A DNA stretch of 42,269 bases, from positions 1 through 42,269 of the IMG/VR virus record IMGVR_UViG_3300032103_000031; one strand, 5' to 3'. A program made the translations under genes and the position numbers. Positions 4,656-32,646 of the stretch are shown in pieces. This DNA comes from a virus. Lineage: Duplodnaviria > Caudoviricetes. Below the pieces are notes generated by a model. That model was not told the origin of the DNA and did no database searches. It saw only the letters and a list, made by a program, of their open reading frames with translations. Every line of letters begins with the position of its first letter. Position 1 is the first letter of the stretch.

Positions 4656-4990
4656 TGTTTCCAATTCAGCATCCAAATATTGACTACGCACGAAGACTGC
4701 GCGGTGGTGACGTATTTTGGTTTGACGAAGAAGCCAGCCAGACTGCGTGGCTGGACTTCTTCGGTGATGCGCCTGCGTCAACATTCGATCTTACCGCGCA
4801 GGACATTGCTACAGGTGCTCCAAGCATTACAATGCCCACAGTCGGGCAGCCAACTTCTACAGTTTACAACCTCACAGCTACGAACATCACAACAGGTGCG
4901 CCGACTGTATCTAGCCCGACGCTAGCGCAGTCAGGCGTACCAACCACACAGCCGGACTATATCATCACAGCCCGGCGTAGGCGGCGATAG
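4655..4990 (+). CDS. Thr-rich repeat protein with a poly-Arg tail
   Basis: ATG at 4655 overlaps the upstream TGA; two internal ~27-aa repeats (LTAxxIxTGAP). Confidence 0.65.
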   Translation: MFPIQHPNIDYARRLRGGDVFWFDEEASQTAWLDFFGDAPASTFDLTAQDIATGAPSITMPTVGQPTSTVYNLTATNITTGAPTVSSPTLAQSGVPTTQPDYIITARRRRR

Positions 4991-24652: not shown

Positions 24653-25901
24653 CGGTCAGCTTCTCCTGTAGCAACTGGTTGAGGTTGCGCAGCATCAACT
24701 TGTTTGTGCCACGCCACACCGTTTTCTTACGCCCACTTGTTGGCACTTCAAACCGCTGCACCATTTCCAACTCGTGCATTGTATTGAGCGCGTATTCCAA
24801 CTCTCGTGTGCGTATCTGGCTGCGTGTCTTGAACAGTAGCTCACTTTGTGTGATGCCTAGCTCACCAGCCTCAAGCAGCACACGCCGCAGCTTGTCCAGT
24901 CCAGCGACAAGGCGCACACTCTCACGCTGACTGCCGAACAGTGCCGCAGCAGACTGCTTGTGGTGCGCGATAATCTTGATCGCGTGCCCCATGTGGTGGT
25001 GGTCAATCTGCCAGCTATTGTCATTGGCCGCCAGCAGTGCGGCTAGTCGGAGGATGTGATGATCCTCTCGTGCCTCGAAGCTGGCAATGAATGGATCACC
25101 GCCATCGCTCTCTCGGCGTCCTTCATACCAGCGCACAAACCTAGCTTTGGCGCTATCAGTGAGAGATATGCCCTTGGACGCCCAACGCTCGGACTGTGCG
25201 CGAATACGTAGCAGGTCGCTAGCAAGCTCATCCACGCTGATGCTTCCAGCATCTTCGGGCCAAGCGACAAGTCGCTTACGCTTCTCTTCAATGATGAAGA
25301 GGCAACGGCTAGTGAACCCGCCTTCAACAACATCGGGGTTGATAGCGCGCACCAACCAGCTAGGAGTGGAAGCGGCTGCGAAGGTGATGCACGCATTGCG
25401 GATGACGCGAGGGCCAGATGACAGTCGGCTGTAGTCTCGGAGTGTTGGACAATCATAGAGGTCTGTGAGTAGTCCTGGCATTGCAACGGTGTATTGCTCT
25501 TTACCAAGGAACGTGACCAACTCACTAACGATGATGCCAGCCATTGCGTCTCGACCATCACCAGATCGCAAGGCAAGCTGTTCAACAAGCTTTTCAGGTG
25601 TTGTTGATCCTGTGACTGTAAGAGCGGACAGGTCAAATCCAGCCGCTCGATATACAGCTTCGCACATGCGAATAGCTGTTGACTTGCGTGTTGTTCCTGC
25701 ATCTGCGCACAGCACCATGTAAAGGTTGAGGAACACAGGAGCCTTAGGCCGGTTGACTACAATCCTCCGGCCAATGGCATTCGACAGCAGCCACAGCCCA
25801 CACCAGAAGTCATAGGCCAGTGGCGTTTCCAGTGGAGCCATGTATTGCAGATAGCGATGAAGGAACGTGCCTTCCTTCACTGCATCACGGAACATGCTCA
25901 T
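24645..25901 (-). CDS. DUF3987/YfjI-like AAA+ replicative helicase with a C-terminal winged helix
   Basis: NLYMVLCADAGTTRKSTAI P-loop variant, SELVTFL, LTDLYD, GGFTSR arginine finger; start MSMF at 25901 after GAGGGG. Confidence 0.75.
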   Translation of the reverse strand: MSMFRDAVKEGTFLHRYLQYMAPLETPLAYDFWCGLWLLSNAIGRRIVVNRPKAPVFLNLYMVLCADAGTTRKSTAIRMCEAVYRAAGFDLSALTVTGSTTPEKLVEQLALRSGDGRDAMAGIIVSELVTFLGKEQYTVAMPGLLTDLYDCPTLRDYSRLSSGPRVIRNACITFAAASTPSWLVRAINPDVVEGGFTSRCLFIIEEKRKRLVAWPEDAGSISVDELASDLLRIRAQSERWASKGISLTDSAKARFVRWYEGRRESDGGDPFIASFEAREDHHILRLAALLAANDNSWQIDHHHMGHAIKIIAHHKQSAAALFGSQRESVRLVAGLDKLRRVLLEAGELGITQSELLFKTRSQIRTRELEYALNTMHELEMVQRFEVPTSGRKKTVWRGTNKLMLRNLNQLLQEKLTDE

Positions 25902-26167
25902 GTGCCATCCCCTCGGTCCATGTTGCACGGCAGACATGCCATGCGCAGGTTAGACCGTGCGTTGCGTCCTCCACGTGAGACAGGCACGATGTGGTCTATC
26001 GTAGCATGCCGCAGTGGTGTGTCCATGCCGCAGATCGCGCAGAAGCCGCACTGGTCAATCCACAGGGATTGCTTGATGTGCCTACGCCAAGAGGACTGCA
26101 TACCACGTGTCCCCTTGGCGCTGCTAGGCGAGCGTCGCTTCTTGCCCATCAGTCGTAGTCTGTCCAC
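25898..26167 (-). CDS. HNH endonuclease
   Basis: CAICG...TIDHIVPVSRGG.N..SNLRMACLPCN. Confidence 0.9.
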   Translation of the reverse strand: MDRLRLMGKKRRSPSSAKGTRGMQSSWRRHIKQSLWIDQCGFCAICGMDTPLRHATIDHIVPVSRGGRNARSNLRMACLPCNMDRGDGT

Positions 26168-26352: not shown

Positions 26353-27186
26353 CTACGCAAACTTGAGCTTCTTCATGTTGGACCACCGATGAACACCGCC
26401 CTCATCTGGATAAGATACCTTGAAGTCCGCAGGAATGATGAGCGGATCACCGTGGATGATGAGGGGTGCTTCTGCATACTTGCGCATGATGTGCGCCACA
26501 TGCGGCACGTCTCGCTCTCGACACATGGCAGTCAAGCTGTCATGGTTGTTGAACGGGATGCGTGCATACATAGGCCACTTGTCGTCCTCTTGTGACTTCC
26601 ACTGGACGCCGCACACGAAGTCACCAAGCGTTGACTGCGGCTTGAATGCAATGATGCTGTCCATCAGACTGTCATCAATGCGTGAGCCGAGAAACTCCAT
26701 GCGTCGGCCAAGGCATGTGTAGAGCGCGCGGTGTTCATAGACCTCGCGGATGATCGTGTCCCACCACCGCTTCAACTCTGGCGTGGCTCGATGGTAAGCG
26801 TCGTAAGCCAGTTGAGCTTGTGCAAGGGACATTCCAGTGACTGCTGCCAATCGGGCAGCTTGCATTCGGTAGTTAAGGCCGTGTCGGCATCGCTTGCTGA
26901 TGCCGCGGAGTGAGAGACTTCCGATAGGATGCTCTGGTGTGGCGTTTCCAGCATCATAGTAGTCAAACGTCGGAACGCTGTCATATGGCACTTTGAACAT
27001 TTCACTTGCAAGCGCAATGTGAGCATCGTAGGTGCCGGGGTTCTTTCTCGCACGTTCAAACTGCTCCTTCCAGCTATTGATCTTCCCTTCCCATCCGACG
27101 ATGCGCGCTTCTGCTTGCGCACCGTCGAAGTAAACGTAGCATAGACTTTCTTCCTTACCGCGCTTTAGGCTCGGTGTAGCCAGCAT
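26353..27186 (-). CDS. Family A DNA polymerase, C-terminal part (motifs A, B, C)
   Basis: Motif A YFDGAQAEAR, motif B RGISKRCRHGLNY, motif C NNHDSL; SD GGAGGA before ATG 27186. Confidence 0.9.
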   Translation of the reverse strand: MLATPSLKRGKEESLCYVYFDGAQAEARIVGWEGKINSWKEQFERARKNPGTYDAHIALASEMFKVPYDSVPTFDYYDAGNATPEHPIGSLSLRGISKRCRHGLNYRMQAARLAAVTGMSLAQAQLAYDAYHRATPELKRWWDTIIREVYEHRALYTCLGRRMEFLGSRIDDSLMDSIIAFKPQSTLGDFVCGVQWKSQEDDKWPMYARIPFNNHDSLTAMCRERDVPHVAHIMRKYAEAPLIIHGDPLIIPADFKVSYPDEGGVHRWSNMKKLKFA

Positions 27187-27301
27187 ACGGTCCTCCAAAG
27201 ATGCACATATGGTTCGCGTGGTCGTATCGGCACTTCTCACACACTGCACACTTGCAGGGCGTAAGCTGTGCTTCTAGGCGGATACCTTTCTGATCATTCA
27301 T
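27155..27301 (-). CDS. Hidden 48-aa Cys-rich protein inside the polA interruption
   Basis: MNDQKGIRLEAQLTPCKCAVCEKCRYDHANHMCIFGGPYAGYTEPKAR; AGGA upstream; spans the insert in the third frame. Confidence 0.55.
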   Translation of the reverse strand: MNDQKGIRLEAQLTPCKCAVCEKCRYDHANHMCIFGGPYAGYTEPKAR

Positions 27302-28976
27302 TGAAGTGTATCCTGTCCGCGATGAACATGCCTCGTAGCCGTTCTGGCTGGTTCTGTAGGTTCATGCCGCTGCCCCACAACGTGCTGCTGCTGGACAAGC
27401 GGCCCGGCACAAACTGTGTGCCAAACTGCTTGTAGTCGCTGCGCATTCGCCCGTCAGGATCAATGTCCGCTTCGATATACGTGGACAGCAGCTTATGCTG
27501 TTCCTTGTATTCGTTGAGGATGCCAAGCATCTTGCGTGCGGCTTCTGGTGTCCGTGGGCTTTCGATCATTGCATTGCGGTTCTCTTCATTCGTGCTAGTG
27601 TTCTTGCCAACAAGCCGTAGCTTCTGGAAGAACAACTCGGCAAGCTGCTTAGGCGACAGCGGGTTGGGGCTGATAGTCTCGTCATTTGCTGCAATGCGTG
27701 CGGCAACGACAAACTCTTCCCGCAGACGGTCCACATCACGGCCGAAGTCGTGCTGTAGCTGCTTGCGCATTGCAATGTCAATCTTGTTACCAAGCACCGT
27801 GGCTCCAACAAGATGTGGCTGCAAGCGCATCACATGTTCAGAGAAGAAGTCCCACATCTTCTGCTGCTTCAACTCCGCTTCAAGCCGGCGAGCAACCTCC
27901 CAAGTGATGCACACATCCTTGACGTTGTATTCCCAAAAGCTGCTGATATCGCCGCCCTCACGCCACGTGTCCTTCTCATCCTTGTAGAACGGATGCGTAG
28001 TGTATTGCGCTGTGAGGAAGCCAAGGTTATGTGGCCACGTCGGGTGGAGTGTGTGATGTGCAAGTAGTGTATCAATCCATAGCGGCCTAGCTTTGATGCG
28101 GTCCTTATACCAAAGCCATCCGCAGTCGAAGCCTCCATTCTGCGCGACCAACCGCACGCTCGCGTGACGGAGGACACGCTGAATGCTTCGTCGAACCCTG
28201 CTCTCATCAGCCAAAGACCAACGATTGTGTTCACGTCCACGGAAGTTGATGCACATGCCTTCGTGGGCATTGTTGGCGAATCCGACGCACGCTGTCTCAT
28301 TGGACACAACCTCCACGTCGAAGGACACCGGCAACGCTTCTTGGATCATCCTGTCACACCAGCGCACTGCCTCGTCTGGCGACGGATCGTAGAAGGCACG
28401 CACATCGTGCGGCTTCCAAACACCCCGCATCACCATGTCCAGCTTGCTTATGTCCAATCGGAAGATGGGTTCCAAGCTTGGCTTACGAAGGATGAGAGCG
28501 GGGTTGTTTGCAATGACAAAGCTGCGTTTGCCATCGCCCACGACCGAGCCACGCCACTTCTCGATACCGCTATCGCCAACCACAGCCTGCAATGCAATAT
28601 CCCCGAGGACAAGCACGTGCTTGCAGTTAGGCAACTGCGATAGCTCCCAATCAAGTAGTGCCTTCCAGTGGGATAGCTCATTGCGGCTCACACCCTTCTT
28701 GCTGGTCTGTGCATCGTCCACAAGCTGCTTCTTTACTACGTTGGTGATGTAGCAGTGCTGGCGGCGGATGCCAAACTTGGCGAGCACTTCCCACAGAAAC
28801 TTGCCGCTGCCGCCTACAAGTGGAGCGCGTAGCTCCACTTCACGAGGTCCGGGTGCTTCGCCTACGATGGCGAGGGCAGCATTGCAATCACCGTCAGCAA
28901 GGCAGTCCACAGACAGTCCCGCAGCCGATGCACGTTGCGCAAACTCCCTGTTCAGTTGTCCGATTGTTGTAGCCAT
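27294..28976 (-). CDS. Family A DNA polymerase, N-terminal part: UDG-like domain, 3'-5' exonuclease and thumb
   Basis: IVGEAPG..E...PLVG.SG, YITNVVK (family 4 UDG fold); FDVE, QNGGFD, YNVKD (Exo I-III); GRLSSS, NLQNQP; stops before motif A. Confidence 0.9.
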   Translation of the reverse strand: MATTIGQLNREFAQRASAAGLSVDCLADGDCNAALAIVGEAPGPREVELRAPLVGGSGKFLWEVLAKFGIRRQHCYITNVVKKQLVDDAQTSKKGVSRNELSHWKALLDWELSQLPNCKHVLVLGDIALQAVVGDSGIEKWRGSVVGDGKRSFVIANNPALILRKPSLEPIFRLDISKLDMVMRGVWKPHDVRAFYDPSPDEAVRWCDRMIQEALPVSFDVEVVSNETACVGFANNAHEGMCINFRGREHNRWSLADESRVRRSIQRVLRHASVRLVAQNGGFDCGWLWYKDRIKARPLWIDTLLAHHTLHPTWPHNLGFLTAQYTTHPFYKDEKDTWREGGDISSFWEYNVKDVCITWEVARRLEAELKQQKMWDFFSEHVMRLQPHLVGATVLGNKIDIAMRKQLQHDFGRDVDRLREEFVVAARIAANDETISPNPLSPKQLAELFFQKLRLVGKNTSTNEENRNAMIESPRTPEAARKMLGILNEYKEQHKLLSTYIEADIDPDGRMRSDYKQFGTQFVPGRLSSSSTLWGSGMNLQNQPERLRGMFIADRIHFNE

Positions 28977-31738: not shown

Positions 31739-32158
31739 TCAGACAGCGCGCACAGGTGTCGCGCGAGCCTGAGGCATACCCTGGTAATCCTCATGCTCAA
31801 TCTTGAGGATCACTTCCTGACCGATGAAGTCAGTGGCGATGAGACGATTGGCGATGCTCACACCGTGCATCTCACCAAACTTCTTGAGCATCCACTTGTT
31901 GCGTGGCGTCTCCTTGAGGGAGATATACGACGACAGCGTTTCACCGTCAGGGTTGCCGTCAGTGTAGTCAGCGGGATACTGGTCCGCGCTAATGTGGTAA
32001 GTGACAGCGAGCATAGGATTGCCGCTGGCCTTGCTGACCTTCAACTCCGCGATGCGCACGGAGCCACGGTATTCACCGATGGGCAGCGGCTTGGGCTGCT
32101 CGGCATCACCGATGTTGGTCTGAAACTCATAGACACTTCCCAACTCTGACATATTCAT
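31739..32158 (-). CDS. DUF669-like single-stranded DNA-binding protein
   Basis: PLPIGEY, SKASGNPML, FIGQEV..KIEHEDYQG; synteny with the Sak4-like ATPase. Confidence 0.72.
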   Translation of the reverse strand: MNMSELGSVYEFQTNIGDAEQPKPLPIGEYRGSVRIAELKVSKASGNPMLAVTYHISADQYPADYTDGNPDGETLSSYISLKETPRNKWMLKKFGEMHGVSIANRLIATDFIGQEVILKIEHEDYQGMPQARATPVRAV

Positions 32159-32622
32159 GTCTCCTGCTTGCTGTAGCGTTTGAATGCTGCGTCATAACCT
32201 TCCGCCGCAGCTACGGCTTCGGCGTGTGTGGCGTATGTTCGATCGAAAATCACGCCCCCACGCTGAATAACCAAGCGAAACCTGTCGCCTCGTGGATACA
32301 CGAGCTTGGCGTAGTCGCATCTGTCACTGTTAAGTTGATTGTCAGAGCAACTAGCTACCCGAAGGTTTGCCTTGCGATTGTCCAAGCCATTGCGATTGAT
32401 GTGGTCAATAAGAACATCACCTGCCTGCATTACAACGCGGTGCATTAGCACGGTTGTAGGCTCACCTTCGTAAACTCCACTGGCTACTACATATCCATGC
32501 GGATGCAGTCGCCATGTGTAATTTAGAAGAAGCTGCAGGTCATCCTCATCATACAGCACACCTTGACTACGCAATGCTTCTAGACGCTGCTGGCGTCTAG
32601 CGGACAGTCGAGTATTATCCAT
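32155..32622 (-). CDS. Free-standing HNH homing endonuclease (HNH plus AP2-like C-terminus)
   Basis: MHRVVM...IDHINRNGLDNRKANLR; C-terminal TYATHAEAVAA; AT-richer codons than its neighbours. Confidence 0.85.
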   Translation of the reverse strand: MDNTRLSARRQQRLEALRSQGVLYDEDDLQLLLNYTWRLHPHGYVVASGVYEGEPTTVLMHRVVMQAGDVLIDHINRNGLDNRKANLRVASCSDNQLNSDRCDYAKLVYPRGDRFRLVIQRGGVIFDRTYATHAEAVAAAEGYDAAFKRYSKQET

Positions 32623-32646
32623 CCATTCATTACCTCCTTGGGCCAT

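What the first reader, a model, noticed from the sequence alone, without database searches (positions are those of the whole stretch)
27155..27301. The polA insert is itself a hidden 48-aa Cys/His-rich gene
Seen: in the third frame an ATG overlapping the last polA-N codons opens MNDQKGIRLEAQLTPCKCAVCEKCRYDHANHMCIFGGPYAGYTEPKAR. Its TAA ends one base before the downstream GAA-GAA. ORF and interruption coincide almost exactly, its start codon lies within the hairpin, and its Gly-Gly codons supply the SD for the C-terminal polymerase half. CxCxxCxxC-x8-C suggests Zn or Fe-S binding. Inference: it may be a third polymerase subunit, a regulator coupling translation of the two halves, or a minimal mobile insert. 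The fused UDG domain lacks the Cys ligands of family 4 UDGs, so supply of a metal cluster in trans is a speculative possibility.
Basis: partly seen in the sequence, partly recalled or inferred. Interest (0 to 1): 0.7.

Follow-up and report, generated by a model that had tools for sequence, protein, structure and literature searches.

The report
Passenger cysteine miniprotein in split polymerase
The 48-amino-acid reading frame belongs to a widespread, unnamed family of small four-cysteine phage proteins that likely bind zinc, and here it fills a swappable gap between the two genes of a split DNA polymerase, so it is most likely a passenger and not a third polymerase subunit.

Summary
The ORF is real. 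It is not polymerase-specific: it belongs to an unnamed phage miniprotein family, CxxCxxC-x7-14-C-x-[YF]-GGP-[YF]-x-G[YF] (18 unselected homologues; 37 other viral loci, none with polA nearby). It matches no Pfam, PHROG, NCBIfam or fold entry. The polA break is a clade trait: 29 of the 120 best PolA hits end at the same site. Ten other split loci with complete gaps carry 1-3 unrelated small genes there, none this one. The first gap gene starts at the same position in all clade loci, and each C-half has its own ATG, so two separately made chains are likely; they are predicted to assemble (0.86, best control 0.28). Third subunit, cluster supply to UDG, bypass, intron and autonomous mobile insert are unsupported. 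A PolA cut at this site with a small ORF is published (MEP401/402, PMC10580990), and this scan noted the architecture on other DNA (e1-10026854). New: the miniprotein family, evidence that the gap gene is interchangeable, and its GGP codons doubling as the C-half ribosome-binding site. Expression, metal and target are untested.

The parts
27155..27301 (-). 48-aa gene of the Cys4-GGP phage miniprotein family; current occupant of the polA gap
27176..27250 (-). conserved core CxxCxxC-x8-C-x-F-GGP-Y-x-GY (likely metal site)
27311..27314 (-). AGGA, SD-like site 9 nt before the ORF's ATG; it is the first codon of the polA-N tail, and AGG or AAGG stands at this place in all 11 clade loci
27280..27313 (-). 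predicted stem covering the ORF's SD and start; not above shuffles and not conserved
27294..28976 (-). PolA-N gene, 560 aa: cluster-less UDG-like domain, 3'-5' exonuclease, thumb and first palm strands, 6-residue tail
27191..27196 (-). GGAGGA: the ORF's Gly-Gly codons and the likely SD of PolA-C
26353..27186 (-). PolA-C gene, 277 aa from the ATG at 27186: short N-terminal extension, then motifs A, B and C; overlaps the ORF by 32 nt

Best explanation
The 48-aa ORF is a member of a widespread family of small four-cysteine phage proteins that likely bind one zinc ion and likely act as a dispensable accessory factor on some target other than the polymerase, and it fills an interchangeable slot between two genes whose products are predicted to assemble into the phage's only family A DNA polymerase.

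Steps. (1, shown) polA is cut in the loop before motif A in a whole clade, and the gap holds 1-3 varying small genes. (2, inferred from conserved SD and start positions) Ribosomes finishing PolA-N re-initiate at the overlapping ATG, using the AGGA in the PolA-N tail. (3, inferred) PolA-C starts at its own ATG; here the miniprotein's GGA-GGA codons act as its SD, so the three genes form one coupled chain. (4, predicted) PolA-N and PolA-C associate non-covalently, and the tails at the cut lie in the interface. (5, inferred) The miniprotein entered by recombination at translation-start boundaries, as other gap genes did, and is a passenger. Zinc about 0.65, Fe-S about 0.2 (judgement, untested).
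For: Family. The exhaustive phmmer search gave 20 hits at E<=0.001: self, 18 short homologues and one unrelated Cys-rich 653-aa protein, which I dropped. C18, C21, C24, C33, G37 and P38 are invariant in 19 of 19 and in 73 of 73 rows (the locus rows were picked by the motif, so that count is partly circular). Third codon positions of the motif vary freely.

Context. 0 of 37 other viral loci have a polA hit within up to 3 kb. 123 neighbour ORFs from 33 loci show no common neighbour: RNR, UvsX, PolB, terminase, capsid, integrase, tail fibre and others.

Slot. 8 of 44 non-self loci are split, and five more distinct ones came. Gaps in the clade run 267-856 nt against 176 here, and none of 10 complete gaps holds this family. 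The first gap ATG is 13 nt after the IAD codon in 11 of 11 clade loci. An in-frame PolA-C ATG is present in 10 of 10 complete clade loci, plus L039. In L050 and L064 it overlaps the gap gene's stop.

Both halves look functional. pN is 0.11-0.19 against pS 0.72-0.79 for four relatives, and there is no other polA in the 99%-complete record. The break is present in two DNA assemblies, which may be the source of this record.

Complex. Score 0.86, best of 3 controls 0.28; the mark was reached by 116 of 157 solved and 2 of 215 mismatched pairs. The runs agree in at least 95% of contacts, partner pLDDT is at least 87, and the interface includes N 548-559 and C 10-17. The pass may come from likeness to solved single-chain PolAs.
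Against: There is no expression, proteomic or metal data. The miniprotein's target is unknown, so 'passenger' rests on non-conservation, and a lineage-specific role at this locus is not excluded. Some PolA-C starts have a weak or no SD (L007, L050, L060) and would depend on coupling alone. Several family loci have short flanks, so a polA further away is not excluded. The model of the miniprotein is weak (pLDDT 66).
Confidence: 0.8

Rival explanations
1. The miniprotein is a third polymerase subunit, or supplies a metal cluster to the UDG domain.
For: It fills the gap tightly and is coupled to both halves. The UDG domain lacks Cys ligands.
Against: It is absent from 10 of 10 other complete split gaps. 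0 of 37 other family loci have polA in their flanks. Intact polymerases lack the same ligands without any such gene at the site (0 of 83 with CxxC).
Confidence: 0.05
2. One polymerase chain is made by ribosomal bypass from GAA before the stop to the downstream GAA (T4 gene 60 type), and the ORF is incidental or secondary.
For: In the window a GAA precedes the stop, GAA-GAA follows the insert, and a stem covers the stop.
Against: The codon before the stop is GAT, GAC, GAG or GTA in the 10 other clade loci. It encodes the same residue as the EE landing codons only in L050, though L002 and L041 have an in-frame GAT just before the C-half ATG. Gaps reach 856 nt and are filled with coupled genes. 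The stem is not conserved. Every complete locus has its own PolA-C ATG.
Confidence: 0.06
3. The insert is removed as an intron or as DNA, restoring one polA frame.
For: Phage polA genes often carry group I introns, and the MEP401 authors raised this for the same architecture (PMC10580990, Discussion read).
Against: The gap is wholly filled by overlapping coding frames. Rfam gave no relevant hit in 10 loci, only one chance lncRNA match at E 0.92. There are no boundary repeats in the window. The 3' boundary differs among loci, down to a 2-residue extension in L050.
Confidence: 0.04
4. The ORF is a dedicated regulator: its translation (Cys supply, metal-dependent pausing) sets PolA-C output through the embedded SD.
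For: The PolA-C SD and ATG sit inside the conserved GGP-Y codons. A stem covers the ORF's own start.
Against: GGP-[YF] is conserved as protein in loci without polA. 8 of 33 cores have GGAGG there, and only 2 of 33, self included, have SD plus ATG. So the overlap looks opportunistic. Other loci use unrelated genes.
Confidence: 0.07

Closest known systems
Split PolA of OM43 phages MEP401/MEP402 (PMC10580990; passages and Discussion read; OP830906 fetched)
   Same: The cut is at the same place: the N-gene ends just after RLSS..NLQN and the C-gene starts at the motif A strand. One small unknown ORF is tightly packed between them.
   Different: Zobellviridae, without the UDG domain. The gap ORF (77 aa, no Cys) is unrelated. 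The authors left an intron open. Here gap genes are shown to vary across a clade, and each C-half has its own start.
Split gene 43A/43B of Aeromonas phages 25 and 44RR; split nrdA of Aeh1 (PMC2988022, one passage read; PMC3045599, abstract only)
   Same: An essential gene in two pieces whose products co-purify and are active. In NrdA-a/b, tails gained at the cut are needed for activity.
   Different: These are a family B polymerase and an RNR, with an untranslated spacer or a homing endonuclease in the gap. Here the gap holds small non-nuclease genes, and the role of the tails is untested.
Exo|pol split PolA of S-SBP1/S-TIP37-like cyanophages, and cluster 17 UDG-PolA (PMC10201439 and PMC12695635, passages read)
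   Same: A family A polymerase as two genes predicted to reassemble, and UDG-PolA fusions with a degenerate UDG domain.
   Different: Those are cut between the exonuclease and polymerase domains, not inside the palm.
Cys4 structural zinc loops with CxxCxxC-x7-C spacing (alcohol dehydrogenase type; recalled, from no call)
   Same: Four Cys in near-identical spacing. One source auto-names a homologue 'Zn-dependent alcohol dehydrogenase' and another 'rubredoxin'.
   Different: This is a stand-alone protein of about 45-90 aa with a variable x7-14 spacer and a GGP-[YF]-x-G[YF] motif. It has no Pfam, PHROG, NCBIfam, PDB-sequence or fold match.

Membership tests
Cys4-GGP phage miniprotein family (defined here) | CxxCxxC-x7-14-C-x-[YF]-GGP-[YF]-x-G[YF] in a short stand-alone ORF | tested here: met
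Cys4-GGP phage miniprotein family (defined here) | metal binding by the four Cys | not testable with these tools
   inferred from invariance; model pLDDT 66
Genes-in-pieces split polymerase | two ORFs that together cover one PolA, with catalytic motifs kept and under purifying selection | tested here: met
Genes-in-pieces split polymerase | own start for the C-half | tested here: met
   in-frame ATG in 10 of 10 complete clade loci and L039; sequence evidence only
Genes-in-pieces split polymerase | non-covalent assembly into an active enzyme | tested here: inconclusive
   prediction passes (0.86 against 0.28) but may reflect likeness to solved PolAs; activity not testable here
Polymerase accessory subunit | co-occurrence with the polymerase | tested here: not met
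T4 gene 60-type bypass | conserved matched take-off and landing codons with a conserved stop hairpin | tested here: not met
Group I/II intron | ribozyme core in the insert | tested here: not met
   the gap is fully coding
MITE or IS-like minimal element | terminal inverted repeats or target duplication | tested here: not met
   none at 27100-27400 with seed 7 and minimum 9 nt
Ferredoxin-type 4Fe-4S motif CxxCxxCxxxC (recalled) | x3 spacing before the fourth Cys | tested here: not met
   spacer is 7-14 in 33 of 33 cores; another Fe-S binding mode is not excluded
Family 4 UDG with Fe-S cluster (ligand positions recalled) | N-terminal CxxC and KC ligand Cys | tested here: not met
   0 of 28 split and 0 of 83 intact have CxxC; no Cys at the KC position
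Known fold | structural match | tested here: inconclusive
   no Foldseek hit at E<=0.001; best VIA Z 2.1, rmsd 4.0, 43 aligned; weak model

The most novel reading that the evidence does not exclude
The gap in this polymerase is a translation-locked cargo slot. Any gene that plugs in at the fixed start is co-expressed with an essential enzyme, and it is hard to lose once it carries the start signal of the catalytic half. The present cargo belongs to an undescribed, widespread family of zinc miniproteins that phages use against a host function such as defence.
Probability: 0.2. Interest if true: 0.6.

Novelty: new member of a known kind. Interest (0 to 1): 0.35.

Why it matters
The finding shows that small ORFs inside PolAs cut before motif A can be interchangeable passengers, not introns or subunits, a point left open for MEP401/402. 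It defines a small phage protein family that Pfam, PHROGs and NCBIfam do not cover and that can be tested directly (synthesis, metal analysis, pull-down). It also marks a natural split site in family A polymerases that has been cut, filled and apparently rejoined several times. The more striking idea, a third metal-carrying subunit, does not hold.

Tried and rejected
Word-based search with the ORF alone found only itself; the family appeared only with the exhaustive search.

Family libraries: no hit for the ORF in Pfam, PHROGs or NCBIfam, and at most 1-2 members shared any weak family. The PDB sequence search gave only chance hits. ESM Atlas scores stayed under 0.9; Ral at 0.75 and YgbA at 0.76 are leads only. 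Fold searches gave nothing usable.

Cultured phages: tblastn of three members gave no real hit. The phage Summit hit is antisense to an annotated gene.

Prokaryote genomes: the profile scan of genome contigs did not run. A fixed x8 DNA pattern found 2 matches in 185,579 genomes; other spacers were not searched.

Expression: no RNA holder was listed, and two RNA-labelled runs laid nothing. This is no evidence either way.

Homing by the downstream HNH as the cause of the split: present in only 7 of the 12 split loci tabulated, all close kin, and several others end too early to tell; absent in L050, L062 and L064. Not general.

A first UDG regex missed 95 of 120 proteins and was replaced by an alignment.

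Paper searches for the family (small proteins + phage + zinc + CxxCxxC) found 0 papers. Two searches on His at PolA position 762 found nothing relevant. PMC8351571, 10.1101/325100 and 10.64898/2026.09.30.755723 were read as passages and add only that other split phage polymerases exist. No supplements were read; those of PMC10580990 and PMC10201439 may list further PolAs cut at this site.

Full report
Setting. The window is a 42-kb phage record, 99% complete by the tool's estimate, with terminase, portal and head genes. The replication module on the minus strand runs helicase, kinase, polA, a short HNH and a DUF3987 gene. polA is in two ORFs. PolA-N (28976-27294, 560 aa) has UDG, exonuclease and Pfam PolA positions 5-148; PolA-C has positions 151-355. 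It is the only polA in the record.

Observation. The 48-aa ORF, its overlap with the PolA-N stop, its end one base before GAA-GAA, and the GGAGGA before an ATG at 27186 are all as described. An open frame of this length is common (219 of 1024 off-frame windows), so the case for a gene rests on homology. The stem over the start is in the minimum-energy fold but is not above shuffles (z -1.15) and is not kept in relatives (z -2.26 to +1.56 in 11 loci).

The ORF is a member of a real family. Exhaustive phmmer gave 20 hits at E<=0.001: self, 18 proteins of 45-91 aa, and one unrelated Cys-rich 653-aa protein that I left out. All 19 share C18, C21, C24, C33, G37 and P38; the first Cys and the His residues are not conserved. 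A profile found 37 proteins at E<=0.01 among 147 candidates and 38 viral loci, self included. In 33 distinct cores the spacer is 7-14 residues and third codon positions vary freely, so the constraint is on the protein and not on an RNA (positions 1-2 were fixed by my selection). A fixed-spacer pattern found only 2 matches in 185,579 prokaryote genomes. No library names the family, and the weak model (pLDDT 66) has no fold match. Zinc binding is inferred from four invariant Cys in a spacing close to known structural zinc loops (recalled); the x3 spacing of the ferredoxin motif is not met.

The family is not tied to polA. None of 37 other loci has a polA hit in its flanks (some flanks are short). 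123 neighbour ORFs from 33 loci, four near-duplicates skipped, show no common partner; one member follows a family B polymerase, others RNR, UvsX, integrase or structural genes. The UDG argument fails too: 0 of 28 split and 0 of 83 intact relatives have the N-terminal CxxC, and none has the KC cysteine. Degenerate UDG domains on phage PolAs are described in PMC10201439 (passages read).

The gap is a clade-wide slot. Of 44 non-self loci, 8 are split at this site and 36 are intact. Pattern scans added L050, L051, L060, L062 and L064. At protein level 29 of the best 120 hits (of 731) end within 5-9 residues of the cut; 91 are intact, two with a loop about 27 residues longer there. The eleven distinct other split loci, ten with complete gaps, carry one to three small genes in changing combinations, none of this family. 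In 11 of 11 clade loci, window included, the first gap ATG lies 13 nt after the IAD codon, behind an AGG or AAGG that is also the first codon of the PolA-N tail. The conserved tail is therefore at least partly a translation-start signal read in another frame (inference). PolA-C has an in-frame ATG 21-60 nt before motif A in 10 of 10 complete clade loci, with an SD, a stop-start overlap, or both; in L007, L050 and L060 the SD is weak or absent. Repeats of the start region at gap-gene boundaries in L039 (40 nt, exact) and L062 (14 nt, 93%) suggest that genes enter at these boundaries. In the window the PolA-C SD is the family's Gly-Gly. Only 2 of 33 cores have both GGAGG and an ATG there, so this looks like co-option.

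How the enzyme is likely restored. Bypass needs matched codons. The codon before the stop differs across the clade, and gaps reach 856 nt. An intron needs a ribozyme core; there is no room for one and Rfam found none. Both halves are under purifying selection (pN 0.11-0.19, pS 0.72-0.79 against four relatives). The predicted complex of PolA-N 195-560 with PolA-C scored 0.86 against a best control of 0.28; 116 of 157 solved and 2 of 215 mismatched pairs reach the mark, the runs agree in at least 95% of contacts and partner pLDDT is at least 87. The tails at the cut are in the interface. Halves of a split gene tend to pass by likeness to solved structures, so this shows fit, not binding.

History. 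On N-half trees, split and intact forms interleave (quick tree, 60 rows, one short row dropped). In a 28-row subset that I chose after seeing that tree, the state changes at least 6 times on starred branches, and one clade of split forms is rejected (p-AU 3e-59; the group was defined by the trait, but the rows were not picked blind). Since the same tail recurs on distant branches, one split followed by re-fusion or recombination with intact alleles is likelier than many splits (inference). L039 is distant, has a different tail, and is probably a separate cut.

What is known. MEP401/402 have a PolA cut at the same site with a small unknown ORF, and the authors left an intron open (PMC10580990, passages and Discussion read; site checked). 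Split 43A/43B and Aeh1 NrdA show that such pieces assemble and work (PMC2988022, passage; PMC3045599, abstract). I found no paper on the miniprotein family in one search, which does not show that none exists.

Verdict. It is best read as a passenger of an unnamed Cys4 miniprotein family in a known kind of split polymerase (0.8). Third subunit 0.05, bypass 0.06, splicing 0.04, dedicated regulator 0.07. Interest 0.35.

Noticed in passing
window 26353-27186 (-), motif B: The residue at the Tyr/Phe/Leu position of motif B (E. coli 762, numbering recalled) is His here and in all 72 intact relatives that the regex matched (of 91). Two paper searches found nothing on it.
   Followed up: partly
L039:4584-4623 and 4784-4823: An exact 40-nt direct repeat (SD, ATG and first codons) heads both gap genes of a distant, probably separately split polA; both genes are Cys-rich.
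   Followed up: partly
window 25898-26167 (-); L001-L007: A short HNH gene follows polA-C in the window's subclade but not in L050, L062, L064 or the intact loci.
   Followed up: partly
P0059, P0076: Single-chain PolAs with a loop about 27 residues longer at the cut; P0076's loop ends resemble the tails of split forms, and P0059 is sister to a split form. Possible re-fusions.
   Followed up: partly
L007:4888-5052: A different Cys-rich, zinc-ribbon-like ORF is the last gap gene and also runs over the PolA-C start; no PHROG hit.
   Followed up: no
window 32155-32646 (-): A second HNH-like gene (163 aa) lies in the replication module, upstream of the helicase.
   Followed up: no
L105:474-4154: A Cys4-GGP family gene sits tightly between a family B polymerase and UvsX in a T4-like phage.
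   Followed up: no
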